Position numbers and translations under genes: made by a program. The notes under the pieces were generated by a model. The model made no database searches, was not told the DNA's origin, and worked only from the letters and a program-made list of their open reading frames with translations. 64,000 nucleotides of DNA from an uncultured Eubacteriales bacterium (lineage in GTDB: Bacteria; Bacillota; Clostridia; Oscillospirales; CAG-272), in contig URAP01000006.1 in assembly GCA_900545935.1 (NCBI GenBank), forward strand, positions 2,669 to 66,668. Reading direction: 5' to 3'. Positions 23,373 through 64,000 of the stretch are shown in pieces. The number at the start of each line of letters is the position of its first letter. The stretch's first letter is position 1.

Positions 23373-24953
23373 TTACTTCTGTTCTATATGCTCTATGGTA
23401 CGCTTAACGCAGTCGGAGATCTTGACCGTGCCGACCTCAAAGATAGAGGTCTCGAGCTTATCGTTATAGCGCTTGCCCCAGTACTCGGGAATGCTCTCGA
23501 GACCGTTTGCCATACCGAGGATAGAGCCTACGGTAGCGCCGTTGCAGTCGGTATCGAAGCCGGTCTGAACAGCAAGGCAGATGGAACGGCTGTAATCACC
23601 GCCGCCGTAGAGCAGACTTGCGGTAACGACCATTGCATTCGAGAGTGTGTGGCACCAGCCGTGCTCGGTGTACTCATCGTACTCGTCGTGGATGAGCTTG
23701 TAAGCCTCCTCCTCGGGCATGCCGTTCTTGTAGTTCTCGAGCACACGCATAACAGCCTCATAGAAGCGTGAGCTGTACGGGATCTGAGCCAGACCGCCGA
23801 GGATGATATCCTCGATATTGTCGGTAACTGCTGCGACCGCAAGTGCTGCGGCAACGAACAGCTCGCCGTAGATACCGTTCTTGACGTGCGAGATGCATGC
23901 ATCGCGGTATGCCATCTCCGCAGCCTTTTCGGGGTCGCCGGGGTTGATGTAGCCGAAATAGTCGCCTCTTATCTGCGCGCCGATCCACTCGCGGAACGGA
24001 TTCTTATAGATAGCGGACTCGGGCGGCAGGAAGCCTGCAACGAAGTTATGATACGCTACGCGCTCCGCGGTGCAGTACATGCACTTGCCCTGGCTGTCGA
24101 GCCAAAGCCATGAAACATCGCGGGAGCAGAAATCTCTCGAGTACTTGTCTATCAGACGCTGACCGAGAACAACATAGTTCAGATCGTCGTCGCAGATCAT
24201 ATAGTCGAGGGCATCGGCGTAGAAGCGCTGTGAAAAGGGATACTCGTACTTTTTGCATATCTCGTCGTTGATATCTGACTTGTAGATATAGCGCTTCATG
24301 GGATAGTTGCCGGTCTCGGTGAGGAACGGGATAAGTTCGTTCGTCTTGATGCCCTCGATGGTCCTTCCGAGCATGCAGCCGCATATTCTGCCCATCCATG
24401 CGCCGTGTATCTTGCTCTCGAGGCGGGACTTGTCTACCGTGCCCTTTACCTCGTGCGGACGGCGGAGCAGCTTTATCTCCTCAAGGTCGGACGGCTCGAT
24501 GTACTTGTAATCGCTGCGCTGCGGGCAGTTCATTACTACGGTGTAGAGAACGTCGCAGAGCTTTTCCTTCATCTTGCCGTGCGGCAGGTTCGAGATGGAC
24601 TGAAAAACGTCCTTGTAGGGCTCGATATCCTTGCCCTCCTCGTATGACTGCATATACTCGGTCATGATGTAGCTCGAGTATGACTCGTATGAGTTAAGAT
24701 TCTCGAGCGGAGGCTCTATCGACTTGACTGTCGAGCCCTCTGAGGTTCTGTTATTGCTGCCGACTACGAGCGAGTCGAGCGAGATGTTGAATTTTTTCGA
24801 CATCTGTATCAGCTTTCCGAGCTCCGGCATCGTCTCGCCGCTCTCCCACTTCTGGACCGACTGCTTGGTTACCTCGAAGAGCGACGCAAACTGCTCCTGA
24901 GACATCTTCAGGCTCGTGCGGAGCTTTGTTATCCGATTATTGATGTTGTTCAT
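23373..24953 (-). CDS. XRE-family HTH domain fused to an ADP-ribosylglycohydrolase-family domain
   Basis: N-terminal LRTSLKMSQEQFASLFEVTKQSVQKWESGETMP (HTH_3). The C-terminal domain has GAWMGRICGCMLGRTIEG and GFDTDCNGATVGSILG, both ARH-family signatures. Confidence 0.8.
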   Translation of the reverse strand: MNNINNRITKLRTSLKMSQEQFASLFEVTKQSVQKWESGETMPELGKLIQMSKKFNISLDSLVVGSNNRTSEGSTVKSIEPPLENLNSYESYSSYIMTEYMQSYEEGKDIEPYKDVFQSISNLPHGKMKEKLCDVLYTVVMNCPQRSDYKYIEPSDLEEIKLLRRPHEVKGTVDKSRLESKIHGAWMGRICGCMLGRTIEGIKTNELIPFLTETGNYPMKRYIYKSDINDEICKKYEYPFSQRFYADALDYMICDDDLNYVVLGQRLIDKYSRDFCSRDVSWLWLDSQGKCMYCTAERVAYHNFVAGFLPPESAIYKNPFREWIGAQIRGDYFGYINPGDPEKAAEMAYRDACISHVKNGIYGELFVAAALAVAAVTDNIEDIILGGLAQIPYSSRFYEAVMRVLENYKNGMPEEEAYKLIHDEYDEYTEHGWCHTLSNAMVVTASLLYGGGDYSRSICLAVQTGFDTDCNGATVGSILGMANGLESIPEYWGKRYNDKLETSIFEVGTVKISDCVKRTIEHIEQK

Positions 24954-25033: not shown

Positions 25034-25927
25034 TCAGCCCTCTGCGGCTATTCGTGCCTCGACCTCGGCGAGCGTCGGAATGGAATTCGCCGCGCCCATC
25101 GTTTCGGTCGCCATAGCGGATGCGGCGGAGGCGCAGCGCATTGCCTCAATGGGTGTCTTGCCGCGGCTTATCGCAGCAGCAAAATAACCGGTAAAGGTAT
25201 CGCCCGCACCGGTTGTGTCGACCGGCCTTGCCTCATACGGAGCCTGATCTACCGACACTGTGCCGTCGCGATATATGCTGCCGTGACTGCCGAGCGTGAG
25301 CACGAGTGCGGTGTTCGGGTAGCGCGCCGCAAATGCCTGCGCTATCTTTTCGGGCTGCTGCTCATCGGTCAGCGCCTGACCCTCGCTGCGGTTTACGATG
25401 ACATAGCTGCACAGTCCGACATTTTCGCGGTCAACAGCGCCGTTCATCGGAGACGGGTTCCACAGCACGCGCAGTCCGCGCGCGGATGCTGCCTTGATTA
25501 TGTAAGCGGTGCAGGGGGTCTCGTTCTGCAGTATGCAGAGATCGCCCGCCGAAAAATGACCGAGCACATCGTCTATCTGAGCCTCGTCAAGCAGGGCGTT
25601 TGCACCCGCATAGACTATGATGCAGTTTTCGCCGGAGCTGTCAACCTGTATCATTGCGTGTCCGGTGCGTGCGTCGCACTGTCTCAGATACTCGGTATTC
25701 GCACCGCTCTGCGCGAGCAGCTCGCGCAGCCATTCTCCGTCCTCGCCGATGTTTCCGGCATGGTATATCTCGCCGCCCGCACGCGCGGTCGCTATCGACT
25801 GGTTAAGTCCCTTGCCGCCTGCGTGTGTCGACAGCGCGGCAGCCGAAATCGTCTCGCCGGGCTGAACGATGCGGTCAAGCTCGTAGACATAATCTATATT
25901 ACATGAGCCGAAGTTCAATACTTTCAT
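25034..25927 (-). CDS. rbsK: Ribokinase / PfkB-family carbohydrate kinase
   Basis: GGKGLNQSIA and DTTGAGDTFTGYF motifs; 297 aa. Confidence 0.85.
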   Translation of the reverse strand: MKVLNFGSCNIDYVYELDRIVQPGETISAAALSTHAGGKGLNQSIATARAGGEIYHAGNIGEDGEWLRELLAQSGANTEYLRQCDARTGHAMIQVDSSGENCIIVYAGANALLDEAQIDDVLGHFSAGDLCILQNETPCTAYIIKAASARGLRVLWNPSPMNGAVDRENVGLCSYVIVNRSEGQALTDEQQPEKIAQAFAARYPNTALVLTLGSHGSIYRDGTVSVDQAPYEARPVDTTGAGDTFTGYFAAAISRGKTPIEAMRCASAASAMATETMGAANSIPTLAEVEARIAAEG

Positions 25928-25951: not shown

Positions 25952-25980
25952 ATTATAGTCTCAAATAATGAACACTTCAA
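25952..25980 (-). promoter_or_regulatory. Candidate promoter of the rbsK / HTH-ARH operon
   Basis: On the minus strand: TTGAAG, a 17-nt spacer, then TATAAT. The predicted transcription start lies very close to the SD. Confidence 0.4.
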
Positions 25981-26103
25981 CCACCTGTCGATTGACTTTT
26001 TGACAACCGCAGGTTGACCGCCTTTGCGTGCAATGAATTTCAATGCAGAATATTCGGCAGGATCCGCCGTTTTTTATTTTCGGCACGGATTTTGCTTCGG
26101 CTA

Positions 26104-52749: not shown

Positions 52750-55224
52750 ATGGATAAAAGAAAGCTGCTTATTGCAGACGATTCCGAGCTGAATCGTGCT
52801 ATACTCGCAAATATGCTTGAGCAGGACTATGATATCATCGAGGTAACGGGCGGAGAGGAGACCCTTGCCGCTTTGCAGACCTATCGCGGAGAGATATCCG
52901 CACTGCTGCTTGATATCGTGATGCCGGGCATGGGCGGCTTTGAGGTGCTTGAGGAGATGCGCAGTCGTCATTGGCTCGATGATGTTCCCACCATTATGAT
53001 CTCTGCGGAGACGGGCAATGCATACATAGACCGTGCATTTAGTCTCGGTGCCTCCGACTATATCAGTCGGCCGTTTGCACCGGTGGTGGTGCGCCATCGA
53101 ATAATAAATACCATACTTCTGCACACGAAAAAGCAGCAGCTGATGGATGTCGCCGAGGGCTGGTTTCGCCGACAGGAAAAGAACAGCGAGGTGCTGGTGT
53201 CGGTGCTTTGCTACGGGATGGAACGCCGCGTGGGAGAGACCGGACTGCATATGAATGGCGTAGGCAGACTGACGGCGCTGCTGCTCCGTCAGCTGCTCAA
53301 GCGTACCGACCGATACCGCCTTTCTGCCGATGATATCGAGATGATTGCAATGGCGGCGAGATTGCATGATATCGGAAAGCTGCTCGTGCCGTCGGATGTG
53401 CTGAAAAAGCCGACGCCGCTGACCGATGAGGAGATGGCGCAGGTTCGTCAGCATACGCGGCTCGGCGTACAGATACTTACGGGGCTGCCGCTGTATCAGA
53501 ATGAGACGCTGATAAAATACGCCGTCGCCATCTGCCGCTCGCACCATGAGCGGTGGAGGGGAGAAGGATATCCGGACGGGCTTGTCGGAGATGCTATACC
53601 GATAGTTGCACAGGTTGTATCGCTTGCCGACTCGTATGACGCATTGACGAGCGAACGCAGCTATAAGCCCGCCTATCCGCATGAAAAAGCGATGCAGATG
53701 ATACATGCAGGCGAGTGCGGCAGCTTTAATCCGCTGCTGCTCGATTGCCTTGATGATATCTCCGAGCTTGTAAGGCAGGGAGTCGCAGAGCGAAATAACG
53801 TGCAGAACAGCGAGGTTCATCGCGCGGTCGAGGAGCTGTACGGCGGTCAGGACATTATGGCGGCTCGCATGACGCATCAGATTGAGGAGGCGAGCGCAAA
53901 GCAGGAGTATTTTTCCACGCAGACCGATGAGCTGTGGTTTGAGTACACCGTTCAGCCCTCCGCCATCAGCCTGTCGCACGGGGCATGTGATCAGACCGGG
54001 TTGCCTGCGGTCATCGTCGACCCGCAGAGCAATTCGGATTTTATAGATGCGGTGGGAGGAGAAACGGTGCGTGCGTTACGCGACCGGCTCGACTCGCTGT
54101 CGTCGGATGAGACGCACATCGAATTGATGGCGGATATAATGCTCGGCGGACGGCTGCGCCGCTGTCGGATAACGGTGCTCGTTATTCGCGCTCTCTCTTC
54201 TGCCGGAGTCGGATGCAGCTGCCTTGTCGGAAAGGTCGACGATATCAACGACAGTTATGCAAGGCTTGAGGAATATGACAGAGAATCGGAGAACGAGGTA
54301 ACCGAGCAGGTGCTGCTTCCGGTCACTGTGGGTGCGGGGGATGTGCTGCGCATAGCACACGATCAGGTAGGTGCTGTCATGCAGTGCTATCGAAAGATGT
54401 TTGCCATCGTTCGCCTTGTCGACCCGGGAATATGCATGCAGGTGTCAGCCGGTGCGGGCGTTCACCATATCGAGCACAGTGAACACTGCTATTCGGTATG
54501 GAACAAGTTCCATCGGTGCGAGAACTGCATCTCTCAGGAGGCCATCCGCACGAGCAAAACGCAGAGCAAGGTCGAGACCGACGGAGGGGAGGTTTACTAT
54601 GTTCTCGCATCACGCGTCGAGATAGACGGTATACCGTATTCGCTCGAGTGCGTCAATCCCATCAGGTCTGCGGCAGCGGAAGCGGAAAGTGATGAAAGCC
54701 TTTTAGGTCAGCTGCTCATACGCAACCGTCAGGTATACATAGACTCTATGACTCAGGTATTTAACCGCCGCTATTACGACGAGCGTATACGCAATCTCAC
54801 CGGCGAGCAGGCGATCGCCATGATAGACATAGATAATTTCAAGCATATAAACGACACCTTCGGACATCCGGCGGGAGACGAGGCGCTGCGCAGTGTTGCG
54901 CAGACCGTCCGCTTTATGCTGCGCAGCAGAGACGAGCTGATACGCTACGGCGGAGATGAGTTTTTTCTGTTGTTCCACGGTCTGCCGGAATATAATCTCC
55001 CGAGTAAGCTGAATCAGATATGCGAGGCAGTCCGTAAGATAAAGCTGCCGAAGTACCCGGATCTGCATCTCAGTATCAGCATAGGCGGAGTCTATGCAGC
55101 CGGAAGAATATCCGAGCTGATTCGCAAGGCGGATATCGCACTGTATGAGGCAAAGATTAAGCGTGACAGGGCTGTCGTGTTCGGTATCTCCGATAGCAGT
55201 GCTGCGAGTGGTAATAATGATTAA
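52750..55224 (+). CDS. Response-regulator receiver - HD-GYP - unknown sensory region - GGDEF protein
   Basis: REC (DDSELNR...LLLDIVMPG, Asp55); HD-GYP (HDIGK at 206, HHERWRGEGYP at 265-275); GGDEF at 734-738 with an RxxD I-site (RSRD 725-728) at PleD-like spacing. Confidence 0.9.
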   Translation: MDKRKLLIADDSELNRAILANMLEQDYDIIEVTGGEETLAALQTYRGEISALLLDIVMPGMGGFEVLEEMRSRHWLDDVPTIMISAETGNAYIDRAFSLGASDYISRPFAPVVVRHRIINTILLHTKKQQLMDVAEGWFRRQEKNSEVLVSVLCYGMERRVGETGLHMNGVGRLTALLLRQLLKRTDRYRLSADDIEMIAMAARLHDIGKLLVPSDVLKKPTPLTDEEMAQVRQHTRLGVQILTGLPLYQNETLIKYAVAICRSHHERWRGEGYPDGLVGDAIPIVAQVVSLADSYDALTSERSYKPAYPHEKAMQMIHAGECGSFNPLLLDCLDDISELVRQGVAERNNVQNSEVHRAVEELYGGQDIMAARMTHQIEEASAKQEYFSTQTDELWFEYTVQPSAISLSHGACDQTGLPAVIVDPQSNSDFIDAVGGETVRALRDRLDSLSSDETHIELMADIMLGGRLRRCRITVLVIRALSSAGVGCSCLVGKVDDINDSYARLEEYDRESENEVTEQVLLPVTVGAGDVLRIAHDQVGAVMQCYRKMFAIVRLVDPGICMQVSAGAGVHHIEHSEHCYSVWNKFHRCENCISQEAIRTSKTQSKVETDGGEVYYVLASRVEIDGIPYSLECVNPIRSAAAEAESDESLLGQLLIRNRQVYIDSMTQVFNRRYYDERIRNLTGEQAIAMIDIDNFKHINDTFGHPAGDEALRSVAQTVRFMLRSRDELIRYGGDEFFLLFHGLPEYNLPSKLNQICEAVRKIKLPKYPDLHLSISIGGVYAAGRISELIRKADIALYEAKIKRDRAVVFGISDSSAASGNND

Positions 55225-55236
55225 GGAGGCGACGTA

Positions 55237-55353
55237 ATGATAGGAGCGGAGAACGCAAGAGACCGTATCTCAGAGACGTCTTTAATGCTTCGCTGTCGCT
55301 CCGATAGTCGCCATGTCCGCAAATGGCTTTCGGTACGATATACGCAGGGCTGA
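55237..55353 (+). CDS. Candidate 38-codon small ORF (MIGAENARDRISETSLMLRCRSDSRHVRKWLSVRYTQG)
   Basis: A canonical AAGGAGG (55223-55229) lies 7 nt upstream of the ATG, overlapping the stop of the preceding gene. There is no homology evidence. Confidence 0.2.
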   Translation: MIGAENARDRISETSLMLRCRSDSRHVRKWLSVRYTQG

Positions 55354-55471
55354 TCGGCAGGGAATCATCTGCTGAAGCGGCAAGCACCGAAAAGCTGCCG
55401 CACAACGCAGCATATTATGCAGATAGATGAAACGCAGCCGATCTGAATATACAGATAGGTGATAAAAGAAT

Positions 55472-55517
55472 AAAAGCGGGCTGTTAAAAAACAAGTTTTT
55501 TTAACAGCCCGCTTTTT
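55472..55517. terminator. Bidirectional terminator between the c-di-GMP gene region and the 55653 gene
   Basis: AAAAGCGGGCTGTTAAAAAA-caag-TTTTTTTAACAGCCCGCTTTTT. Confidence 0.8.
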
Positions 55518-55652
55518 GTAATACTGATAATATGTTCGGAGCGGGTAGCTTTGTCCCGTCAGGCGTATGAGTGTACATTATGGGCAAATTTTCTGCAGGG
55601 AAGTGAATTATGCTCCATATAGGATTATCCGACAGATCGGCTCCGAAGCGTA

Positions 55653-56099
55653 TTAATCGTTCTCCGAGTCGTCGGACAGCTCTTCGATAAGCCCCATTTT
55701 TTCGACATTGCCGAGGTAACGCCTGCATGCATCTGCATTTTTCGGTGCCCCGGCGATGTATCTGCGCATCTGAACGGAAAAGTCTCGCCAACAGTCCTCG
55801 CTGCGGCTCGGTATAGTTATCCGCTCTTTTTTGAATGTAACGGAGCAGTTCAGCATTCTGCATGCCGCAAGAAAAGGAAACAGTTCCGTTATTCCCTGCT
55901 CGAATGTGACCAGAACGGACGGGATGACGATCCTTTTTCCGGGGCGGATCAGCTCGAAATGCGGTGCGCCGGAAAACGCCTCTATGTCGTTTATATGCCT
56001 TTCTTTCGGTATATTTATTCTCGGGCGCTTAGCCATCGGGGCGGTGTGTCCGTCGAGGCTGTCGTCGTGCTTACTTTTCATTGTGGATCTCGTTATCAT
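55653..56099 (-). CDS. Hypothetical protein (148 aa, acidic C-terminal tail)
   Basis: The ORF has a plausible promoter at 56177-56205. An overlapping alternative-frame ORF (55501-55863) is Arg-rich and less protein-like. I recognise no family. Confidence 0.45.
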   Translation of the reverse strand: MITRSTMKSKHDDSLDGHTAPMAKRPRINIPKERHINDIEAFSGAPHFELIRPGKRIVIPSVLVTFEQGITELFPFLAACRMLNCSVTFKKERITIPSRSEDCWRDFSVQMRRYIAGAPKNADACRRYLGNVEKMGLIEELSDDSEND

Positions 56100-56176
56100 T
56101 TTTTGCTCTTATAATATGCTCTTCGCTTTGTTATTCTTTTTGCGAATTTTCGTGTATATAACTATCGTACGGCGGT

Positions 56177-56205
56177 ATTATGACACAAATTATACGATTT
56201 GTCAA
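56177..56205 (-). promoter_or_regulatory. Candidate promoter of the 55653-56099 gene
   Basis: On the minus strand: TTGACA, a 17-nt spacer, then TGtCATAAT. Confidence 0.4.
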
Positions 56206-56360
56206 TAGTTGCTTTATAAAAATACAAAAAGAGGGAAACGAACGCGCAATGCTTTTCGGACAGGACGGCGCATCCGCCTCACTTTACGGCGATTTGTCCC
56301 GATGTACGCTTTGCCGCCGCACGGTGCTTTGTTTTAGCATGACCGAAAACCGTACCGTAA

Positions 56361-56406
56361 TATTCGACCGTGACATAAACCGATACGCGCGTTATTCGAC
56401 CGTGAC
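56361..56406. repeat. 14-nt direct duplication of the glmS 3' end
   Basis: TATTCGACCGTGAC occurs at 56361-56374 and at 56393-56406. The second copy contains the glmS stop and its last codons. Confidence 0.7.
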
Positions 56407-58221
56407 CGATTTTGCAAGGTTGCGGGGATGATCGACATCGCAGCCGCGCAGCTGTGCCGTGCGCAGCGCGATAAGCTGTACGGCTGTTACCGCCGAAATG
56501 CAGGCGAGCTCCGGCGGGAGCGGCGGAAGCGTGAATACGGTATCTGCCGTATCCGAGGCATTTTCAAAGTCGGGAGTACAAAAGAGAACCGTGTAACCGC
56601 CCCGCGCACGAACCTCGGCAATGTTTCCCGCGGTCTTTGCGTGGTAAAGCGGGTCGGTGGCGAGCGCCGCAAGGATAGTTCCGCGCTCGATGAGCGACAG
56701 TGTTCCGTGCTTCAGCTCTCCTGCGGCATATGCCTCGCTGTGAATATAGGATATTTCTTTCAGCTTCAGCGAGCATTCGGTGCAGGCGGGAAAATCCGGC
56801 CCTCTGCCGATAAAGTATGCATCGCTTTTATCACGGAGCAGCCGTGCTATCTCGGACAGCTCGCTGTCGCGCGAGAGGATGCTCTCTATTGCATGAGGCA
56901 GATCGGAGACGAGTGCGGAGGCCAGCGCTCTGCCGCGCTCTGCGCCGAGCCGTCCTCGCAGCACACCGAGTTTTATCGCCGTCATTGCGAGCAGCACTGC
57001 CTGAGTGGTATAGCCCTTGGTTGTGGCAACAGCTATCTCCGGTCCCGCGCACTGATAGAGTACATAGTCCGCCTCGACTGCTGCGGTAGAGCCTACCGCG
57101 TTGACTATGGCGAGCGTTCGCTTGCCGTTTTTCTTTGCCAGTCTCAGTGCGGCGAGTGTGTCGGCGGTCTCGCCTGACTGAGAGATAGGTATAACGAGAG
57201 TATGTCCGTTCATCGCCGGAGGACGATAGCGATACTCGGAGGCGGTATTGACCGTTACCGGAATTCCGGCAAGCTCCTCTATCCAGAATCGCCCGAGCAG
57301 TGCGGCATGCGTTGCCGAACCGCAGGCGACTATCTCGATGCCGTCCGGTTCGCACCATACGGTGTCGGGAATCCCGTCGGCGGAGAAATCGGGCAATCCG
57401 TCCGCGCCGAGCCGTGCGCCGGCGCAGCGGCGTATGGCATTAGGCTGTTCGTTTATCTCTTTTTCCATATAGCTGTCGTATCCGTCGGTACCGACAGTGC
57501 CTATACTTGCAGAAAAGGTCTCCGGCTGTCGACGCTCGGCATTGCCATCTCGGTCGATGTAATAGATGCCGCCGTGTTCAATGCGGCAGACCTGTCCCTG
57601 CGGCGGTCGAAGCATGCTGCGTGTATAGTCGAGTACGGCAGGAGCATCCGAGGCTATGAAGCACTCACCGTCGCCGACGGCGAGTACGAGCGGACTGTCA
57701 TGTCTTACGGCGTAGATCACATCCGGTATGTCGTGAAACAGTATCGCAAGCGCATAGGAGCCGCGCATCTGCTCGCATGCCTCATATATCGCCGCCTCCG
57801 GCTTGCCGAGCCTGCGATACTCGCGGTCGATGAGATGTGCGATACACTCGGTATCTGTCTCGCTGGCAAATGTATAGCCCTCGCCGAGCAGCTGCCTTTT
57901 GATCTGTGCGAAGTTGTCGAGAATGCCGTTGTGGACGAGTGTAAGGGTGTGTGATGCGTGCGGATGGGCATTGCTCTCGGTCGGCGCGCCGTGCGTCGCC
58001 CAGCGGGTGTGACCTATGCCGCAGCTGCTGTCCGGGATAGTCCCTGCCTTTTCTGCGAGAGCGGCGACTCTGCCTGTGCTTTTAACGCACCGTACCTCTC
58101 CGCCGGGCTCGGTCAGTGCTATTCCCGCCGAGTCGTAGCCACGGTATTCGAGTGCCGACAGCCCATGCAGCAGCACATTTTTTGCACTTTTCGCTCCGGT
58201 ATATCCGATTATTCCACACAT
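56392..58221 (-). CDS. glmS: Glutamine--fructose-6-phosphate aminotransferase
   Basis: N-terminal MCGIIGY nucleophile, two SIS domains, C-terminal KSVTVE; 609 aa. Confidence 0.95.
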   Translation of the reverse strand: MCGIIGYTGAKSAKNVLLHGLSALEYRGYDSAGIALTEPGGEVRCVKSTGRVAALAEKAGTIPDSSCGIGHTRWATHGAPTESNAHPHASHTLTLVHNGILDNFAQIKRQLLGEGYTFASETDTECIAHLIDREYRRLGKPEAAIYEACEQMRGSYALAILFHDIPDVIYAVRHDSPLVLAVGDGECFIASDAPAVLDYTRSMLRPPQGQVCRIEHGGIYYIDRDGNAERRQPETFSASIGTVGTDGYDSYMEKEINEQPNAIRRCAGARLGADGLPDFSADGIPDTVWCEPDGIEIVACGSATHAALLGRFWIEELAGIPVTVNTASEYRYRPPAMNGHTLVIPISQSGETADTLAALRLAKKNGKRTLAIVNAVGSTAAVEADYVLYQCAGPEIAVATTKGYTTQAVLLAMTAIKLGVLRGRLGAERGRALASALVSDLPHAIESILSRDSELSEIARLLRDKSDAYFIGRGPDFPACTECSLKLKEISYIHSEAYAAGELKHGTLSLIERGTILAALATDPLYHAKTAGNIAEVRARGGYTVLFCTPDFENASDTADTVFTLPPLPPELACISAVTAVQLIALRTAQLRGCDVDHPRNLAKSVTVE

Positions 58222-58267
58222 ATCTTTTTCTCCTCTCGGTGTATCAAGATTATCTTATCTATTATCC

Positions 58268-58939
58268 TTATTCTCTGATAACGATGCAGTCGGGGGATTT
58301 GACAATGCAATCCGGCGGGATAACTCCGCGTATCGGGGTCAGTGGGTATATGCTCGTATTACGACCGACGACCGTGCCGGGATTGAGTACGCAGCCGCAG
58401 CCGATGTCGGCATTGTCGCCGAGTATCGCGCCGAGCTTTCGCAGCCCGGTCGCATAGTCGGTATCGCCGTGAATTACGACCGGTTTGCCGTCGGATTTCA
58501 GGTTTGAGCAGACAGCACCGGCACCCATATGCGCGCGGTTTCCGATGATCGAATCGCCCACATAATTGTAGTGCGGCAGCTGCACACCGTCGAGCAGTAT
58601 GCAGTTTTTCAGCTCGGTCGAGTTTCCAATAACGCAGCTGCGTCCTGCGATGATGTTTCCGCGCAGAAAAGCGCCGGGTCTTACCGTGCAGCCGTCGCCG
58701 AGGACTATCGGCGGCAGCAGTACCGCGCTCTCATGTATCGAGACATTTTTTCCTATGACTATTCCGTCCGCGAGGCGTGTGAAGCCCGGTGGCGGTGTCT
58801 TTGTCAGTGCGGCTGCGACCGAGCTGATGTCCGGCAGCAGCTGCCACGGGTATTCATAGGAATAAAAGATTTTGCTCAGATACGGCAGCTCGCATTTCAT
58901 CAGCTCGGATGTTTTTATCTGATCATGCGTTCTATTCAC
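58268..58939 (-). CDS. Left-handed beta-helix (hexapeptide-repeat) acyltransferase resembling the GlmU C-terminal domain
   Basis: Hexapeptide repeats (IGKNVSI, LGDGCTV, IAGRSCV, IGNRAHMGAGAV, LGDNADIGCGCV). GTG start overlaps the upstream stop by 8 nt. There is no nucleotidyltransferase domain. Confidence 0.7.
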   Translation of the reverse strand: MNRTHDQIKTSELMKCELPYLSKIFYSYEYPWQLLPDISSVAAALTKTPPPGFTRLADGIVIGKNVSIHESAVLLPPIVLGDGCTVRPGAFLRGNIIAGRSCVIGNSTELKNCILLDGVQLPHYNYVGDSIIGNRAHMGAGAVCSNLKSDGKPVVIHGDTDYATGLRKLGAILGDNADIGCGCVLNPGTVVGRNTSIYPLTPIRGVIPPDCIVKSPDCIVIRE

Positions 58940-60575
58940 AGCAGTAGCCTCGCTTTCTTATCAGCTCGCACAGCTCGCTAAGATAGTGCTCTCGCTTTGT
59001 CTCATCGTCGCATTCTATCATTACGCGCACCATCGGCTCTGTCCCGCTCGCGCGCAGCAGCGCGCGCCCGCTCCCGGCAATGCGAGAATTGATCTGACGG
59101 TATCTCTCGAGTATGACCTCGTCGGCAAGAACGGCGTGCTTGTCGGTAACACGGAGATTTTTTGTTCGCTGCGGAAAAAGTGTTACACCCTCACACAGTC
59201 CTGACAGCGGCAGCTTTTTGTCGCGCATCTCCTCGGCAATCATCAGCGCGGTGAGAATACCGTCGCCGGTGGTTGCGTATTTCCTGAGGATAATATGCCC
59301 GGATTGCTCGCCGCCTAAACGGTAGCCGTTCTTCTCCATGCATTCAAAGACGAATCGGTCGCCGACATCCGTCTGTTCGTATCCTATACCGATAGCATCG
59401 AGCGAACGCAGCAGTCCGCTGTTTGACATTACCGTAGTGACTACCTTGCCTCCGTCGAGCATTCCGCGCTCACTCAGGCGCTTAGCAAAGATGTAAAGCA
59501 TCTTGTCACCGTCGACTACCGCGCCGTTTTCGTCTACCGCTATGCATCGGTCGGCGTCGCCGTCAAAGGCAAAACCTACATCGAGATGCCCGCTGCGCAC
59601 CAGCTCTTGCAGTGTTTCGATATGTGTTGAGCCGCAGCCCTCGTTTACGTTCAGACCATTCGGGGAAGCGCCTATTACCGTCGTTCTCGCACCGAGTGCG
59701 TCAAAAACCGATTTGGCTATCATCCATGCTGCGCCGTTCGCGCAGTCGAGTCCTATCCGCATGTCCTTGTAGGAGTGTGAGGCGAGCGAAATAAGGTATC
59801 CCACATAGCGGTTTCGTCCGGCGACATAGTCGACGATGCAGCCTATGCGGTCGCGCGAGGCAAGCGGAAGATCGGCGGTGCGCAGTCCGAGCCGCTCAAG
59901 GTCGCCGTCAAGATATGCCTCGATAAGCGATGCGGTGCCGTCGTCGAGCTTTTCTCCGTAGCTGCTGACGATCTTTATCCCGTTGTCGTAGTACGGATTG
60001 TGTGAGGCGGTTATCATTATCCCGCAGTCAAAGCGATCCTGCCGGGTGACATACGAGACGCTCGGGGTTGTTGTGACGTGCAGCATGTATGCGTCCGCGC
60101 CCGAGGCGGTCAGTCCTGCGACGAGTGAATACTCAAACATATAGCTCGAGCGTCGAGTGTCCTTCCCGATGACTATGCGCGGTCGGTATGCCGGCTCGTG
60201 AAAACCGCTGAGAGGCGACGAGTAGTACCAGCCGAGAAATCGACCGACCTTGTATGCCTGCTCGGAGGTCAAGGTGATATTTGCTTCGCCGCGAAAGCCG
60301 TCGGTGCCGAAATATTTATTGCCGCCGCTCGGCTCGTTTATAGATGAGCGCTCGCCCGGCTTGTCTCCGTAGATGTCTATATCATCCCGCAGCAGGCTGT
60401 CGCACGAAACGGAGAACAGCTCGCTGAGCAGCAGCACCTTGTCTATCTGAGGCACCGCCTGATCTATTTCCCATTTGGAGACCGATTGCCGTGATACATC
60501 CAGTCTTTCGGCAAGCGCCTCCTGCGATATCTGCGCCGCCGAGCGCAGGGTATAAATTTTCTTGCCAAGCGTCAT
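58932..60575 (-). CDS. glmM: XRE-family HTH domain fused to phosphoglucosamine mutase
   Basis: ATG at 60575 (MTLGKKIYTLRSAAQISQEALAERLDVSRQSVSKWE = HTH_3). A linker of about 30 aa follows, then KYFGTDGFRGEAN and the phosphoserine loop ITASHNPYYDNGIK typical of GlmM. Confidence 0.8.
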   Translation of the reverse strand: MTLGKKIYTLRSAAQISQEALAERLDVSRQSVSKWEIDQAVPQIDKVLLLSELFSVSCDSLLRDDIDIYGDKPGERSSINEPSGGNKYFGTDGFRGEANITLTSEQAYKVGRFLGWYYSSPLSGFHEPAYRPRIVIGKDTRRSSYMFEYSLVAGLTASGADAYMLHVTTTPSVSYVTRQDRFDCGIMITASHNPYYDNGIKIVSSYGEKLDDGTASLIEAYLDGDLERLGLRTADLPLASRDRIGCIVDYVAGRNRYVGYLISLASHSYKDMRIGLDCANGAAWMIAKSVFDALGARTTVIGASPNGLNVNEGCGSTHIETLQELVRSGHLDVGFAFDGDADRCIAVDENGAVVDGDKMLYIFAKRLSERGMLDGGKVVTTVMSNSGLLRSLDAIGIGYEQTDVGDRFVFECMEKNGYRLGGEQSGHIILRKYATTGDGILTALMIAEEMRDKKLPLSGLCEGVTLFPQRTKNLRVTDKHAVLADEVILERYRQINSRIAGSGRALLRASGTEPMVRVMIECDDETKREHYLSELCELIRKRGYCCE

Positions 60576-60623
60576 TTTTTCGATTTCCTTTCTGTTTCCG
60601 CAGGTCGGTACCGAAATTCCGCA

Positions 60624-60672
60624 GCCGTATCTGTCGAATCCGTCCATATTGCCGTATCAGAGCTGTCGGATA
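60624..60672 (-). repeat. Tandem direct repeats in the HTH-glmM leader
   Basis: Plus strand: GCCGTATC-TGTCGAAT (60624-60639) and GCCGTATC-agagc-TGTCGGAT (60651-60671). A third CTGTCGG lies at 60789-60795. Confidence 0.5.
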
Positions 60673-60819
60673 AGAATACTGCGGCGGTAGTGCTTTTGTA
60701 TGAGTACCTAAGGCATGCCGACCTACGCTTGCTATAATATAGTATTTTGTCCGCTTTTTCTACCAATCAAACGCGGAAATTTTCGCAACTGTCGGTTGCG
60801 ATTTCATATATTCAATGTT

Positions 60820-60848
60820 ATTATACCCGTTTTTTTCGGAAAAATCAA
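60820..60848 (-). promoter_or_regulatory. Promoter of the HTH-glmM / LbH / glmS operon
   Basis: On the minus strand: TTGATT, a 17-nt spacer, then TATAAT. This predicts a leader of about 235 nt. Confidence 0.55.
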
Positions 60849-60935
60849 ATATTATCAGCTGAAATTTAGTTGCGTTGAGATTTTATGTGAGCCTGAATTG
60901 TCATACACGATCGAGTGAAAGTGCTTTGATTGCCG

Positions 60936-60977
60936 AAAAAAATCCTGCGCAGAGACAGCAATGTCTCTGCGCAGGAT
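60936..60977 (-). terminator. Terminator of glnA
   Basis: ATCCTGCGCAGAGAC-6 nt-GTCTCTGCGCAGGAT, followed on the minus strand by TTTTTTT. Confidence 0.8.
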
Positions 60978-61060
60978 CTGAGATCGCAGTTATTTATAGC
61001 TGTAATATCGGATAAAATGCGGCTTGATGTCACTATATCGCTGCCGGACTGTTGCCGGCA

Positions 61061-63157
61061 TTATCGTACTCCGTACAGCAGATCGCCGTAGGTAGGGTAG
61101 GGCCATAGAGTACGGTCGGTGAGCGCCTCTGCCGAGTCTGCGGCGCTGCGGAGGGTATCCATATCGGAGAGGATATCGCGCTTGAAGAACATTGCGCGCT
61201 CCGCGATATTCGACATTTCGGCAGTCTCGGAGAGCTGAGTCTCGAGCTTTGTGCATGCCGCGCGCATATCGGATACGAGTGCAGAGAGGGTGGAAACGGT
61301 CTCAGCCTCGCAGTCGAGCGTGTTCGGGCAGACAGCGCGTGCTGCGTTCACGGTCTCGGCGAGCGTCTTTATCTGCCGCGAGACGGCGGGGATGATATCT
61401 CGCTTTGCCATCTCAAGCATGGTGCGCGCCTCTATCGTTATCTTGGAGCAGTAGTTGCCGAGCATAACGTCATGGCGCGAGCGCAGCTCGGATTCGCTGT
61501 ATACCTTGTGGCGGGTGAGCAGCTCGATGTTTTCACGGTCAAGCAGGTGAGGTACGCAGTCTGCGGTGGTCGGGAAGTTGCGCAGCCCGCGGCGCATCGC
61601 CTCGGCTTTCCATGCGTCGTCGTAGCCGTTTCCGTTGAAGATGATGCGCCCGTGCTCCTCGATGGTGCGCTTTATCAGGTCGTGTACGATATCGGCGAGT
61701 GCCTCCTTGCCGAGACGAGCTTCTATCTCATCGGCATACAGCCGCAGCGACTCGGCTACCGAGGTATTAATTATCGTATTTGTGAGCGAGATGGAGCTTG
61801 ATGCGCCGAGCATGCGGAACTCGAACTTGTTGCCGGTGAATGCAAACGGGGAGGTGCGGTTGCGGTCGGTGGTGTCCTTCGGCAACTTCGGAAGCACGTG
61901 AACGCCGAGGCGCAGCACAGATTTTTCCTCCGCAAGGTATGGCGTATCGTTCTTTATTGCGTCAAGAATGGCGGTAAGCTCGTCTCCGAGAAATACCGAA
62001 ACGATTGCGGGAGGTGCCTCGCTTGCGCCGAGACGGTGGTCGTTGCCTGCGTCTGCGACCGATATACGCAGCAGTACCTGATAGTCGTCGACCGCCTTTA
62101 TGACCGCACAGAGGAAGAGCAGGAACTGCGCATTCTCGTGCGGGGTCTCGCCGGGAGAGAGCAGATTTACGCCGGTATTTGTCGAGAGCGACCAGTTGTT
62201 GTGCTTGCCCGAGCCGTTGACTCCCTCGAAAGGCTTTTCGTGCAGCAGGCAGACGAGTCCGTGACGCTTTGCGACCTCCTGCATCATCTCCATGGTGAGC
62301 TGATTGTCGTCGGTCGCCTTGTTTGTCATACGGTAGATGGGTGCAAGCTCGTGCTGCGCGGGCGCGGTCTCGTTGTGCTCGGTCTTTGCGAGCACGCCGA
62401 GCTTCCACAGCTCCTCGTCGAGCTCGGTCATGAACGCCTTGACTCTCGGCTGTATCGCGCCGAAATAGTGGTCGTCAAGCTCCTGACCCTTGAGTGCGCG
62501 GGTGCCGTAGAGCGTTCTGCCGGTAAAGATAAGATCGGGACGTCGGTCGTACATTTCCTTGTCGACGAGGAAGTATTCCTGCTCGGGTCCTGCCGAGGTG
62601 AATACGCGTGCGGCATCAGATCCGAACAGACGGATAACGCGCAGAGCCTCTCTGCCGAGCGTCTCCATCGAGCGCATGAGAGGAGTCTTTTGGTCGAGCG
62701 CCTCTCCGCTGTACGAACAGAAAACGGTGGGAATGTACAGTGTCGAGCCCTTTATAAAGGCGTATGCCGTGGGGTCCCATGCGGTATAACCGCGCGCCTC
62801 AAAGGTTGCACGCAGTCCTCCGGAGGGCAGGCTCGATGCGTCAGGCTCACCTTGGACCAGCTCCTTGCCCGAGAACTCCATTATGACCCGACCGTCGCCC
62901 GCCGGTGAGATAAAGCTGTCGTGCTTCTCGGCGGTGATGCCTGTCATCGGCTGAAACCAATGTGTATAGTGTGTAGCGCCGTGCTCTACCGCCCAGTCCT
63001 TCATTGCGTTGGCAACGACGTGGGCGACGCTGAGGTCGAGGTGCCGTCCGTCCTCCATCGTGCGTTTCAGGGAGGCGTAGGTCTCGCTCGGCAGACGTGC
63101 CTTCATTGTGGCGGCGTTAAAAACAAGTGAGCCGAAGGTTTCGGGTACATTATTCAT
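61061..63157 (-). CDS. glnA: Glutamine synthetase, type III
   Basis: 698 aa, with N-terminal FGSLVFN...MKARLP and [12 protein letters not shown], both typical of GSIII. Confidence 0.9.
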
Positions 63158-63204
63158 GGTCTTTTACAAAATCCTTTCGCAGCGCGCATTGTGTCGATAA
63201 AGAA

Positions 63205-63233
63205 ATTATACCGCCTGAGGCGGCGGATGTCAA
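63205..63233 (-). promoter_or_regulatory. Promoter of glnA (GSIII)
   Basis: On the minus strand: TTGACA, a 17-nt spacer, then TATAAT. The spacer itself contains the palindrome CCGCCtcaGGCGG. Confidence 0.65.
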
Positions 63234-63365
63234 CATTTTTGCGGGAGGAGGCGCGGATTTTTGCAATATGGGTGGAATTCGTAGCAAAAATGTGTTACAA
63301 TATCTCCGTTATGTTAATGTTGTCATACAGTATTCGGACGAAAAAGAGGGGGGAGAACTGCCGAA

Positions 63366-64000
63366 ATGATACTCATAATTGCGGAGAAGCCGAGTCTTGC
63401 ACGCAATATTGTCGCGGGCATCGGAAAGATGAGCAAATACAGCGGCTATTATGAGGGCTGCGGTTATATAGTAACATGGGCATTCGGACACCTCTTCTCG
63501 CTCTGTGATATAGAGGATTATAATCCGCCGCCGAAGCAGGTGCAGGAGGGCAAGCGTCCGCGTTGGACTATGGCGAATCTGCCCTGCTTTCCGGAGGAAT
63601 TCCGCTTCCGTCTGCGCATGGGGGAGAACGGTAAGCCGGATGCGGGAATTCAGCGGCAGTTTTCGGTCATAGAGACGCTTTGCAACCGCGAGGACGTCGA
63701 CCGCATCGTAAATGCGGGAGACTCGGACAGAGAGGGCGAGATCATCGTCCGCCTGTGCGTCAGTCATGCACTGCACGGCGAGAAGCCCTTCGATCGTTTG
63801 TGGCTGCCCGATCAGACCCCGGAGACGGTCGCGGCGGCGCTGCATAGCATGAAGAGCGAGGACGAATATCAGCACCTCGCCGACGAGGGCTTTGCGCGCA
63901 CATATATCGACTGGCTGTACGGCGTGAATCTTACTCGCTATGCGACGCTGAGGACGGGTACGCTGCTGCGTGTAGGACGAGTTATTGTTCCGATAGTCAA
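63366..64000 (+). CDS. topB: DNA topoisomerase III (5' part; continues beyond the window)
   Basis: My own translation from ATG 63366 is MILIIAEKPSLARNIVAGIG...GYIVTWAFGHLF...NAGDSDREGEII, which is a Toprim domain with the DxDxEGE motif. There is no stop before nt 64000. Confidence 0.85.
   Translation, partial: MILIIAEKPSLARNIVAGIGKMSKYSGYYEGCGYIVTWAFGHLFSLCDIEDYNPPPKQVQEGKRPRWTMANLPCFPEEFRFRLRMGENGKPDAGIQRQFSVIETLCNREDVDRIVNAGDSDREGEIIVRLCVSHALHGEKPFDRLWLPDQTPETVAAALHSMKSEDEYQHLADEGFARTYIDWLYGVNLTRYATLRTGTLLRVGRVIVPIV

What the first reader, a model, noticed from the sequence alone, without database searches (positions are those of the whole stretch)
56392..60848. The hexosamine operon is headed by an XRE-HTH-GlmM fusion, and glmS has no room for its ribozyme
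Three translationally tight genes on the minus strand encode consecutive steps of the pathway. They are an HTH-GlmM fusion, a GlmU-C-terminal-like hexapeptide acyltransferase (8-nt overlap), and GlmS (46-nt gap). In Firmicutes, glmS is normally preceded by the GlcN6P-sensing glmS ribozyme. Here the gap before glmS is only 46 nt. I also found no AGCGCC / GACGAGG core in the ~235-nt operon leader (60576-60812). Instead, the first gene fuses a complete XRE-type DNA-binding domain (residues 1-65) through a linker of about 30 aa to a complete phosphoglucosamine mutase (KYFGTDGFRG, TASHNP). The leader carries tandem direct repeats: minus strand ATTCGACA-GATACGGC and ATCCGACA-gctct-GATACGGC at 60624-60672, with a third CCGACAG at 60789-60795. 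These could be its operator. An enzyme that binds GlcN-6-P/GlcN-1-P and also carries an HTH would be a one-component feedback regulator replacing the riboswitch.
Basis: partly seen in the sequence, partly recalled or inferred. Interest (0 to 1): 0.6.

Follow-up and report, generated by a model that had tools for sequence, protein, structure and literature searches.

The report
DNA-binding GlmM enzyme controlling its amino-sugar operon
The only phosphoglucosamine mutase of this gut bacterium carries a built-in DNA-binding domain, and a matching conserved palindrome sits in its own promoter, so the enzyme very probably controls the operon that makes cell-wall amino-sugar precursors; that it took over the job of the glmS ribozyme is only weakly supported.

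Summary
On the minus strand, an XRE-HTH/GlmM fusion (547 aa), a stand-alone GlmU-type acetyltransferase (8-nt overlap) and GlmS (46-nt gap) form one operon. No glmS ribozyme was found in the window or in the 97%-complete genome.

The fusion is the genome's only GlmM and is catalytically complete. It belongs to one clade of at least 60 loci in gut and rumen Clostridia and some Bacilli MAGs.

It is a palindrome, GCAAC-N5-GTTGC (60785-60799). It occurs with at most one mismatch upstream of 55 of 60 fused genes and 1 of 121 unfused genes. A weaker second site abuts the -35 box. Three lineages that lost the HTH also lost the palindrome.

"Replacing the riboswitch" is only partly supported. The ribozyme was found in 0 of 14 fused genomes against 40 of 137 others. 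However, 8 of the 14 have no glmS, and most of the order lacks the ribozyme anyway. The third operon gene is glmS or nagB in about half of the loci, so supply of GlcN-6-P is often under the same control.

Ligand sensing is untested. This scan met the same fusion earlier in at least 15 other genomes. I found no paper on it.

The parts
60936..60977 (-). Intrinsic terminator of the upstream type III glutamine synthetase gene. It isolates the operon's promoters.
   Evidence: A 16-bp inverted repeat followed by a T run, read.
60820..60848 (-). Distal promoter P1 (TTGATT-17-TATAAT, 10 of 12 matches). The palindrome lies about +13 to +27 from its start site.
   Evidence: A similar promoter lies upstream of the palindrome in L009-L012, L153 and others.
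60785..60799 (.). Operator O1: palindrome GCAACCGACAGTTGC (GCAAC-N5-GTTGC).
   Evidence: It occurs only twice in the 2.1-Mb genome. Upstream of fused genes: 45 perfect and 10 with one mismatch, of 60. Upstream of unfused genes: 0 perfect and 1 with one mismatch, of 121. Half-sites are fixed, the spacer varies, and one-sided mismatches are never compensated.
60763..60777 (.). Operator O2, a degenerate copy (TCCGC-N5-ATTGG here; family consensus TCAAn-N5-GTTGG). It lies 22 bp from O1, and its right half abuts the -35 box of P2.
   Evidence: Consensus of 46 leaders. A CAA-N7-TTG core sits at offset 23 or 24 in 22 of 47 leaders, and the right half is near-universal.
60734..60762 (-). Proximal promoter P2 (TAGAAA-17-TATTAT), aligned with the conserved TTGAnA-17-TAtAAT of the family.
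60576..60733 (-). 5' UTR of about 150 nt. No significant fold.
   Evidence: Fold z-score -1.0. Repeats. Absent from L153. Most relatives have a UTR of about 50 nt.
60381..60575 (-). XRE/Cro-C1 HTH domain, residues 1-65. The recognition-helix region, with consensus VSRQSVSKWE, is conserved.
   Evidence: Pfam. The motif is invariant in 14 sequences and at least 90% conserved in 78. Five helices in the AF2 model.
60318..60380 (-). Flexible linker, residues 66-86.
   Evidence: Variable in length and sequence. pLDDT below 50 at residues 70-83.
58932..60317 (-). Complete phosphoglucosamine mutase, residues 87-547, plus the stop codon.
   Evidence: TIGR01455 489 bits against a cut-off of 447.55. The loops TASHNP, DGDADR, GEQSGH and RASGTEP are conserved. 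It is the only GlmM match in the genome. Best solved relative: 3PDK, E 1.5e-120.
58268..58939 (-). Stand-alone left-handed beta-helix acetyltransferase, equivalent to the C-terminal half of GlmU (putative GlcN-1-P N-acetyltransferase).
   Evidence: It matches positions 243-389 of TIGR03992 and 298-416 of TIGR01173. The N-terminal uridyltransferase half is a separate gene at G000:C7:18165-18911. It follows glmM in 58 of 64 fused loci.
56392..58221 (-). GlmS, glutamine--fructose-6-phosphate transaminase, the third gene of the operon.
   Evidence: TIGR01135 672 bits against a cut-off of 418. It is the only glmS in the genome, and no nagB was found.

Best explanation
The 547-aa protein is the cell's housekeeping GlmM and also the regulator of its own operon.

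Inferred mechanism. GlmM enzymes are dimers. The dimer holds two N-terminal XRE HTH domains on flexible linkers of about 20 residues. These bind the palindrome O1 (GCAAC-N5-GTTGC, 60785-60799). Probably cooperatively, they also bind the weaker O2 two helical turns downstream, which abuts the -35 box of promoter P2. O1 also lies just downstream of the start site of promoter P1. Occupancy most likely represses both promoters. This would give negative autoregulation of three consecutive steps: GlmS (Fru-6-P to GlcN-6-P), GlmM (to GlcN-1-P), and the GlmU-C acetyltransferase (to GlcNAc-1-P).

What is shown: the fusion, its conservation, and the strict co-occurrence and co-loss of HTH and operator.

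What is inferred: DNA binding itself, and the sign of regulation.

What is open: any modulation by sugar phosphates or by the phosphoserine state of the enzyme.
For: All 120 best database clusters carry HTH plus PGM domains at 538-636 aa.

HTH residues R29, S31, S33, W35 and E36 are invariant, and S28, Q30, V32 and K34 are at least 90% conserved, in 78 sequences.

O1 with at most one mismatch lies within 300 nt upstream of 55 of 60 fused loci and 1 of 121 unfused loci.

The fused GlmM domains form one clade (SH-aLRT 99). Three nested members lost both the HTH and the operator.

In the Bacilli-type members O1 lies between the -10 box and the ribosome-binding site, at -28 to -33 from the ATG. 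That is a repressor geometry.

In this genome the exact O1 15-mer recurs only upstream of a paralogous XRE/Zn-ribbon gene. CAAC-N5-GTTG sites also lie upstream of three further XRE transcription units. This ties this HTH type to this motif.

The protein is the sole GlmM in the genome.
Against: In the Oscillospirales-type promoter O1 is centred near -65 of P2, a position also used by activators, and P2's -35 box is weak here (TAGAAA).

O2 is poorly matched in this window (TCCGC...ATTGG).

A paralogous stand-alone XRE with 48% identical HTH could bind the same site.

The disordered linker argues against tight allosteric coupling between enzyme and HTH.
Confidence: 0.75

Rival explanations
1. The fusion is a GlcN-6-P or GlcN-1-P-sensing one-component feedback regulator that functionally replaces the glmS ribozyme. 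Ligand occupancy, or the phosphorylation state of the mutase, changes DNA binding.
For: Ribozyme and fusion never co-occur: 0 of 14 fused genomes against 40 of 137 others. Among genomes with glmS the figures are 0 of 6 against 40 of 91. There are within-genus contrasts. G110 has ribozyme-glmS-glmM, while G071 has the fusion and neither ribozyme nor glmS. Four g34 genomes have the ribozyme, while G117 has the fusion with nagB. The third operon gene makes GlcN-6-P (glmS in 11 loci, nagB in 21, of 64). The active site is fully conserved.
Against: 111 of 151 genomes of the order lack the ribozyme without having the fusion. 8 of 14 fused genomes have no glmS. The 6 fused genomes with glmS represent about 3 lineages, so the association is not significant once kinship is counted. 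28 of 64 fused loci carry neither glmS nor nagB in the operon. The flexible, variable linker gives no obvious route for allostery. No ligand data exist.
Confidence: 0.3
2. The HTH-GlmM acts as an activator of P2. It binds O1 near -65 and O2 near -40 and recruits RNA polymerase to a weak -35 box.
For: O1 and O2 lie upstream of and abutting the -35 box. P2's -35 box is weak in this window (TAGAAA, 9 of 12 in all). An A-tract lies between the sites.
Against: In six Bacilli-type loci the same palindrome lies downstream of the -10 box, which fits only repression. Here O1 is also downstream of P1. Most relatives have good -35 boxes (TTGAtA). XRE autoregulators with a site overlapping the -35 box are usually repressors (general knowledge).
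Confidence: 0.15
3. The palindrome is bound by the stand-alone XRE/Zn-ribbon paralogue (G000:C43, L003), and the fused HTH is a passenger.
For: The identical 15-mer lies upstream of that paralogue. Its orthologue in G013 has the same type of site.
Against: The palindrome tracks the fused HTH across about 180 loci and is lost together with it. The fused recognition helix is under strong constraint.
Confidence: 0.05
4. O1 is an RNA hairpin (attenuator or processing site) in the leader, not a DNA operator.
For: It can form a 6- to 8-bp stem. The terminator scan lists it on the opposite strand.
Against: The stem sequence is invariant while the loop varies. All 10 one-mismatch variants are uncompensated. 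In most loci O1 lies upstream of the only promoter and would not be transcribed. No Rfam hit.
Confidence: 0.03

Closest known systems
Trigger enzymes with a fused DNA-binding domain: BirA, PutA, NadR (general knowledge, not tested here)
   Same: One polypeptide holds an active metabolic enzyme and a DNA-binding domain that acts on the operon of its own pathway. NadR also uses an XRE-type HTH.
   Different: The enzyme partner here is GlmM, with a different operator and pathway. In those systems ligand or substrate control of DNA binding is demonstrated. Here it is unknown.
Canonical bacterial GlmM (B. anthracis 3PDK, B. subtilis 7OJR, S. aureus 6GYZ)
   Same: The same four-domain mutase with all catalytic loops (E 1e-107 to 1e-120). 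It passes the TIGR01455 cut-off.
   Different: Solved GlmM chains are 443-469 aa without an HTH. Here 86 extra N-terminal residues are present (HTH plus linker). The gene is paired with a split glmU-C gene.
glmS ribozyme (RF00234)
   Same: It controls the same pathway entry point in many Firmicutes. It is present in 40 of 151 genomes of this order, always next to glmS.
   Different: It is an RNA that senses GlcN-6-P and cleaves the glmS mRNA. None is present here, and the gap before glmS is 46 nt against a model length of 167 positions.
Autoregulated XRE/Zn-ribbon regulators (HTH_3 + PF12674) of the same genomes
   Same: Their HTH is 45-48% identical and they have the same GCAAC-N5-GTTGC site overlapping their own -35 box. 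They are a plausible donor of the HTH-operator cassette.
   Different: Small stand-alone regulators with no enzyme domain.

Membership tests
Phosphoglucosamine mutase GlmM (TIGR01455) | Whole-protein score above the curated equivalog cut-off | tested here: met
   489.3 bits against 447.55; residues 89-540 cover profile positions 1-441.
Phosphoglucosamine mutase GlmM (TIGR01455) | Catalytic phosphoserine loop, Mg loop, sugar loop and phosphate loop | tested here: met
   TASHNP, DGDADR, GEQSGH and RASGTEP are present. The key residues are invariant in 78 fused homologues.
Phosphoglucosamine mutase GlmM (TIGR01455) | Mutase activity on GlcN-6-P | not testable with these tools
   Indirect only: it is the sole GlmM match in a 97%-complete genome.
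XRE / Cro-C1 HTH (PF01381) | Domain score above the gathering cut-off and a five-helix fold | tested here: met
   39.3 bits against 23. Helices at 3-13, 18-25, 29-36, 44-54 and 58-62 in the AF2 model.
XRE / Cro-C1 HTH (PF01381) | Sequence-specific DNA binding | not testable with these tools
   Inferred from co-occurrence and co-loss of the palindrome with the HTH.
glmS ribozyme (RF00234) | Covariance-model match upstream of glmS | tested here: not met
   No hit at E up to 10 in 54000-64000. No hit in the genome, while controls were found in B. subtilis and D. radiodurans.
Trigger enzyme with DNA-binding domain (BirA/PutA/NadR type) | Active enzyme and DNA-binding domain in one chain, acting on its own pathway's genes | tested here: inconclusive
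   The architecture and the operator at its own promoter are shown. Activity and binding were not measured.
Trigger enzyme with DNA-binding domain (BirA/PutA/NadR type) | DNA binding switched by substrate, product or catalytic state | not testable with these tools
   No data. The linker is disordered and variable.
Bifunctional GlmU (TIGR01173) | Uridyltransferase and acetyltransferase domains in one protein, score above the cut-off | tested here: not met
   The operon protein matches only profile positions 298-416 (51 bits against 366.85). The N-terminal half is a separate gene on contig C7 (207 bits, positions 1-242).
GlmS (TIGR01135) | Score above the cut-off over the full length | tested here: met
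   671.8 bits against 418.05, positions 1-607.

The most novel reading that the evidence does not exclude
GlmM here is a true flux-sensing trigger enzyme. The catalytic state of the mutase (phosphoserine, or occupancy by GlcN-6-P or GlcN-1,6-bisphosphate, with domain-4 closure) gates binding of the tethered HTH pair to O1 and O2. Transcription of the whole entry module for UDP-GlcNAc synthesis (glmS or nagB, glmM, glmU-C) would then be set directly by amino-sugar phosphate flux. That would be a protein-based alternative to the glmS ribozyme, spread by horizontal transfer as a promoter-operator-HTH-enzyme cassette.
Probability: 0.3. Interest if true: 0.75.

Novelty: new variant of a known kind. 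Interest (0 to 1): 0.6.

Why it matters
UDP-GlcNAc supply is essential for peptidoglycan. Its known controls are the glmS ribozyme, GlmY/GlmZ, GlmR and NagR/NagC. A GlmM that carries its own DNA-binding domain, with a defined 15-bp operator, would add a protein-level one-component control of this pathway in abundant uncultured gut and rumen Firmicutes.

It is directly testable with one purified protein and an 80-bp DNA fragment.

The data also show a modular operon in which glmS and nagB alternate as the GlcN-6-P-forming step, and a split GlmU. They suggest that a portable HTH-operator cassette has been fused to several enzymes in these genomes.

Tried and rejected
1. glmS ribozyme or any other Rfam family in the leader: none at E up to 10 and none in the genome.

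2. They are short and absent from the closest relative and from all other leaders.

3. A structured 5' UTR: fold z-score -1.0.

4. A wider regulon: perfect palindromes elsewhere in 10 fused genomes are mostly inside coding sequence (the ABC-transporter LSGGQQQR motif) or are terminator-like hairpins. The only plausible extras are a ROK-family kinase in G114 and XRE/Zn-ribbon paralogues. glmS in G013 and the glmU-N gene of this genome have no perfect site.

5. A second GlmM in the genome: none. The only other PGM-family hit is 28% identical over 145 residues.

A metagenome scan gave relatives at 76% and 70% instead.

8. Literature: three full-text searches found no paper on an HTH-GlmM fusion.
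Full report
**Anatomy.** Three minus-strand genes lie between 56392 and 60575.
- The first protein has an HTH_3 domain (residues about 4-60 counted from the conserved start) followed by PGM_PMM domains I-IV. It passes the curated GlmM equivalog cut-off: TIGR01455, 489 against 447.55 bits.
- The longest ORF starts at 60647 (571 aa). However, most of the 120 best homologues are 538-555 aa, 47 of them exactly 547 aa, and the 14 aligned ones all start at the methionine matching M1 of MTLGKK. An AAAGGAAA ribosome-binding site precedes 60575. The HTH is translated with either start.
- The second gene (58268-58939, 8-nt overlap) encodes only the left-handed beta-helix acetyltransferase half of GlmU. 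The uridyltransferase half is a separate gene on contig C7. GlmU is therefore split in this genome.
- The third gene (46-nt gap) is a full GlmS: TIGR01135, 672 bits.
- Upstream lies a type III glutamine synthetase gene that ends in a strong terminator.

**No ribozyme, one GlmM.** A permissive Rfam scan of 54000-64000 finds nothing relevant. RF00234 finds nothing in the 97.3%-complete genome, while the controls were found. The fusion is the only GlmM-like gene. The next PGM-family hit is 28% identical over 145 residues. No nagB was found, so GlmS is the only recognisable source of GlcN-6-P here.

**The fusion is a conserved family.**
- All 120 best clusters in the 5.8-billion-protein collection carry HTH plus PGM domains. 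Where a source names them, the name is simply "phosphoglucosamine mutase".
- In an even sample of 151 genomes of the order, 14 carry the fusion, about 17 carry a closely related unfused GlmM (52-62% identity), and most of the rest carry a canonical GlmM at about 40-45%.
- A scan of species-representative genomes added about 47 more fused loci. They come from MAGs labelled Acutalibacteraceae, Ruminococcus, Christensenellaceae and Lachnospiraceae, and from a distinct group labelled Bacilli, Bacillales or Erysipelotrichaceae. Nearly all are from animal or human guts.
- In a maximum-likelihood tree of the mutase domain, all 61 fused sequences fall in one clade (SH-aLRT 99). Only three unfused sequences are nested within it. 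The fusion therefore arose once.
- The clade cuts across genome families that otherwise carry canonical GlmM. Family f1, for example, holds all three types. This points to horizontal spread.
- The HTH is under strong constraint. R29, S31, S33, W35 and E36 are invariant, and S28, Q30, V32 and K34 are at least 90% conserved, in 78 sequences. The linker (residues 66-86) varies in length and sequence.
- An AlphaFold2 model (mean pLDDT 83.7) shows a five-helix HTH, a disordered linker and a four-domain mutase.
- Solved GlmM structures have no such extension.

**The operator.** Aligning the upstream regions showed a palindrome, GCAAC-N5-GTTGC (extended consensus GCAACY-N3-RGTTGC), in front of the fused genes.
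- Over all non-redundant loci with at least 200 nt of upstream sequence, it lies within 300 nt of the start in 45 of 60 fused loci perfectly and in 10 more with one mismatch.
- For 121 unfused loci the figures are 0 and 1.
- The remaining fused loci carry recognisably degenerate versions.
- The three nested unfused genes have short leaders without the palindrome, so the HTH and the site were lost together.
- The half-sites are fixed, the spacer varies, and the ten one-mismatch variants are never compensated. This fits a protein-bound DNA site and not an RNA helix.
- In this window the site is at 60785-60799.

**Promoter architecture.** In 46 Oscillospirales-type leaders the consensus runs: O1, an A-tract, a degenerate second site (TCAAn-N5-GTTGG) 22-23 bp downstream, then TTGAnA-17-TAtAAT. 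The right half of O2 directly abuts the -35 box.
- Here, P2 is TAGAAA-17-TATTAT (60762-60734) and O2 is 60763-60777.
- A stronger P1 (TTGATT-17-TATAAT, 60848-60820) places O1 at about +13 to +27.
- In the six Bacilli-type loci the same palindrome sits between the -10 box and the ribosome-binding site, at -28 to -33 from the ATG.
- These positions together favour repression. Activation at P2 cannot be excluded.

**Link between this HTH type and the motif.** The perfect palindrome occurs only twice in the genome. The second copy is the identical 15-mer. It overlaps the -35 box of a stand-alone XRE/Zn-ribbon gene whose HTH is 48% identical to that of the fusion. Its orthologue in G013 has the same arrangement. 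Of 12 CAAC-N5-GTTG sites in the genome, five lie in promoters of XRE-HTH transcription units. One of these is a second enzyme fusion inside this window (see the last section).

**The ribozyme question.** RF00234 was found in 40 of the 151 sampled genomes and in none of the 14 fused ones. But GlmS above the cut-off was found in only 6 of the 14 fused genomes and in 97 of 151 overall.
- Among genomes with glmS the ribozyme count is 0 of 6 fused against 40 of 91 unfused.
- Four of the six belong to one family, so the contrast is suggestive at best.
- 111 genomes lack the ribozyme without having the fusion.
- On the other side, the third gene of the fused operon is nagB in 21 and glmS in 11 of 64 loci. 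The NagB passes TIGR00502.
- In two genera, close relatives differ between "ribozyme-glmS plus ordinary glmM" and "fusion without glmS" (G110 against G071; four g34 genomes against G117). MAG quality is a caveat for these contrasts.
- The conserved target of the HTH is therefore the glmM-glmU-C core. A GlcN-6-P-forming enzyme is often, but not always, recruited to it. In this window that enzyme is GlmS.

The leader here is about 100 nt longer than in most relatives. O1 lies at -224 from the ATG, against about -100 to -130 elsewhere. The extra stretch holds the short repeats. It has no significant fold (z = -1.0). It is missing from the closest relative available (L153, 76% identity). I treat it as a lineage-specific insertion of unknown meaning.

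**Comparison with what is known.** The design is that of trigger enzymes with their own DNA-binding domain (BirA, PutA, NadR; general knowledge). The enzyme partner, the operator and the pathway are new to the literature I could search. This scan met the same fusion earlier in at least 15 other genomes and reached the same core reading. I derived the operator here before looking those notes up.

**Limits.** There are no binding, expression or ligand data.

**Seen in passing.** The window holds a second XRE-HTH/enzyme fusion: HTH plus ADP-ribosylglycohydrolase, 23373-24953. It lies behind a PfkB kinase gene whose promoter carries the same kind of operator-promoter cassette.

Noticed in passing
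window 23373-24953 (-), 25034-25927 (-), about 25960-26016: A second XRE-HTH/enzyme fusion (HTH_3 plus ADP-ribosylglycohydrolase, 526 aa). It is the second gene behind a PfkB-family kinase. The promoter of that pair carries ACAACCTGCGGTTGT, then GGTGGTTGA (-35 box) and TATAAT. This is the same operator-promoter layout as at glmM.
   Followed up: partly
G000:C43 (L003:1420-1926): The exact 15-mer GCAACCGACAGTTGC overlaps the -35 box of a stand-alone XRE plus Zn-ribbon (PF12674) gene, followed by a methylated-DNA-protein-cysteine methyltransferase-like gene. This gene family is a possible donor of the HTH-operator cassette, and cross-regulation with the glmM operon is possible.
   Followed up: partly
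fused loci L017-L020, L067-L080 and others: In fused operons the third gene alternates between nagB (21 loci) and glmS (11 loci). Many fused genomes have no glmS at all, which implies that NagB works in the biosynthetic direction or that amino sugars are salvaged.
   Followed up: partly
window 58268-58939 and G000:C7:18165-18911: GlmU is split into a stand-alone acetyltransferase (in the operon) and a stand-alone uridyltransferase (elsewhere). The glmM/glmU-C gene pair is also conserved next to the closely related unfused GlmM genes.
   Followed up: partly
L039 (G114:C2:122466-122480): In a same-family genome without glmS, a second O1-like site with a similar downstream layout precedes a ROK-family kinase of the glucokinase type (below the family cut-off). 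It is a possible extra regulon member.
   Followed up: partly
window 61061-63157 (-), terminator 60936-60977: A type III glutamine synthetase gene lies directly upstream of the operon that contains the glutamine-using GlmS. The two are separated by a strong terminator.
   Followed up: no
L122, L132, L177, L183, L200: Some unfused glmM loci gave matches to query residues 3-544 spanning 1.7-2.0 kb, although the gene starts at KYFGTDG. An HTH-like stretch may lie downstream of, or C-terminal to, glmM there.
   Followed up: no
window 60576-60733: A lineage-specific extension of the 5' UTR of about 100 nt with short direct repeats (GATACGGC twice, TTCCGCAG twice). It is absent from relatives and its meaning is unknown.
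   Followed up: partly
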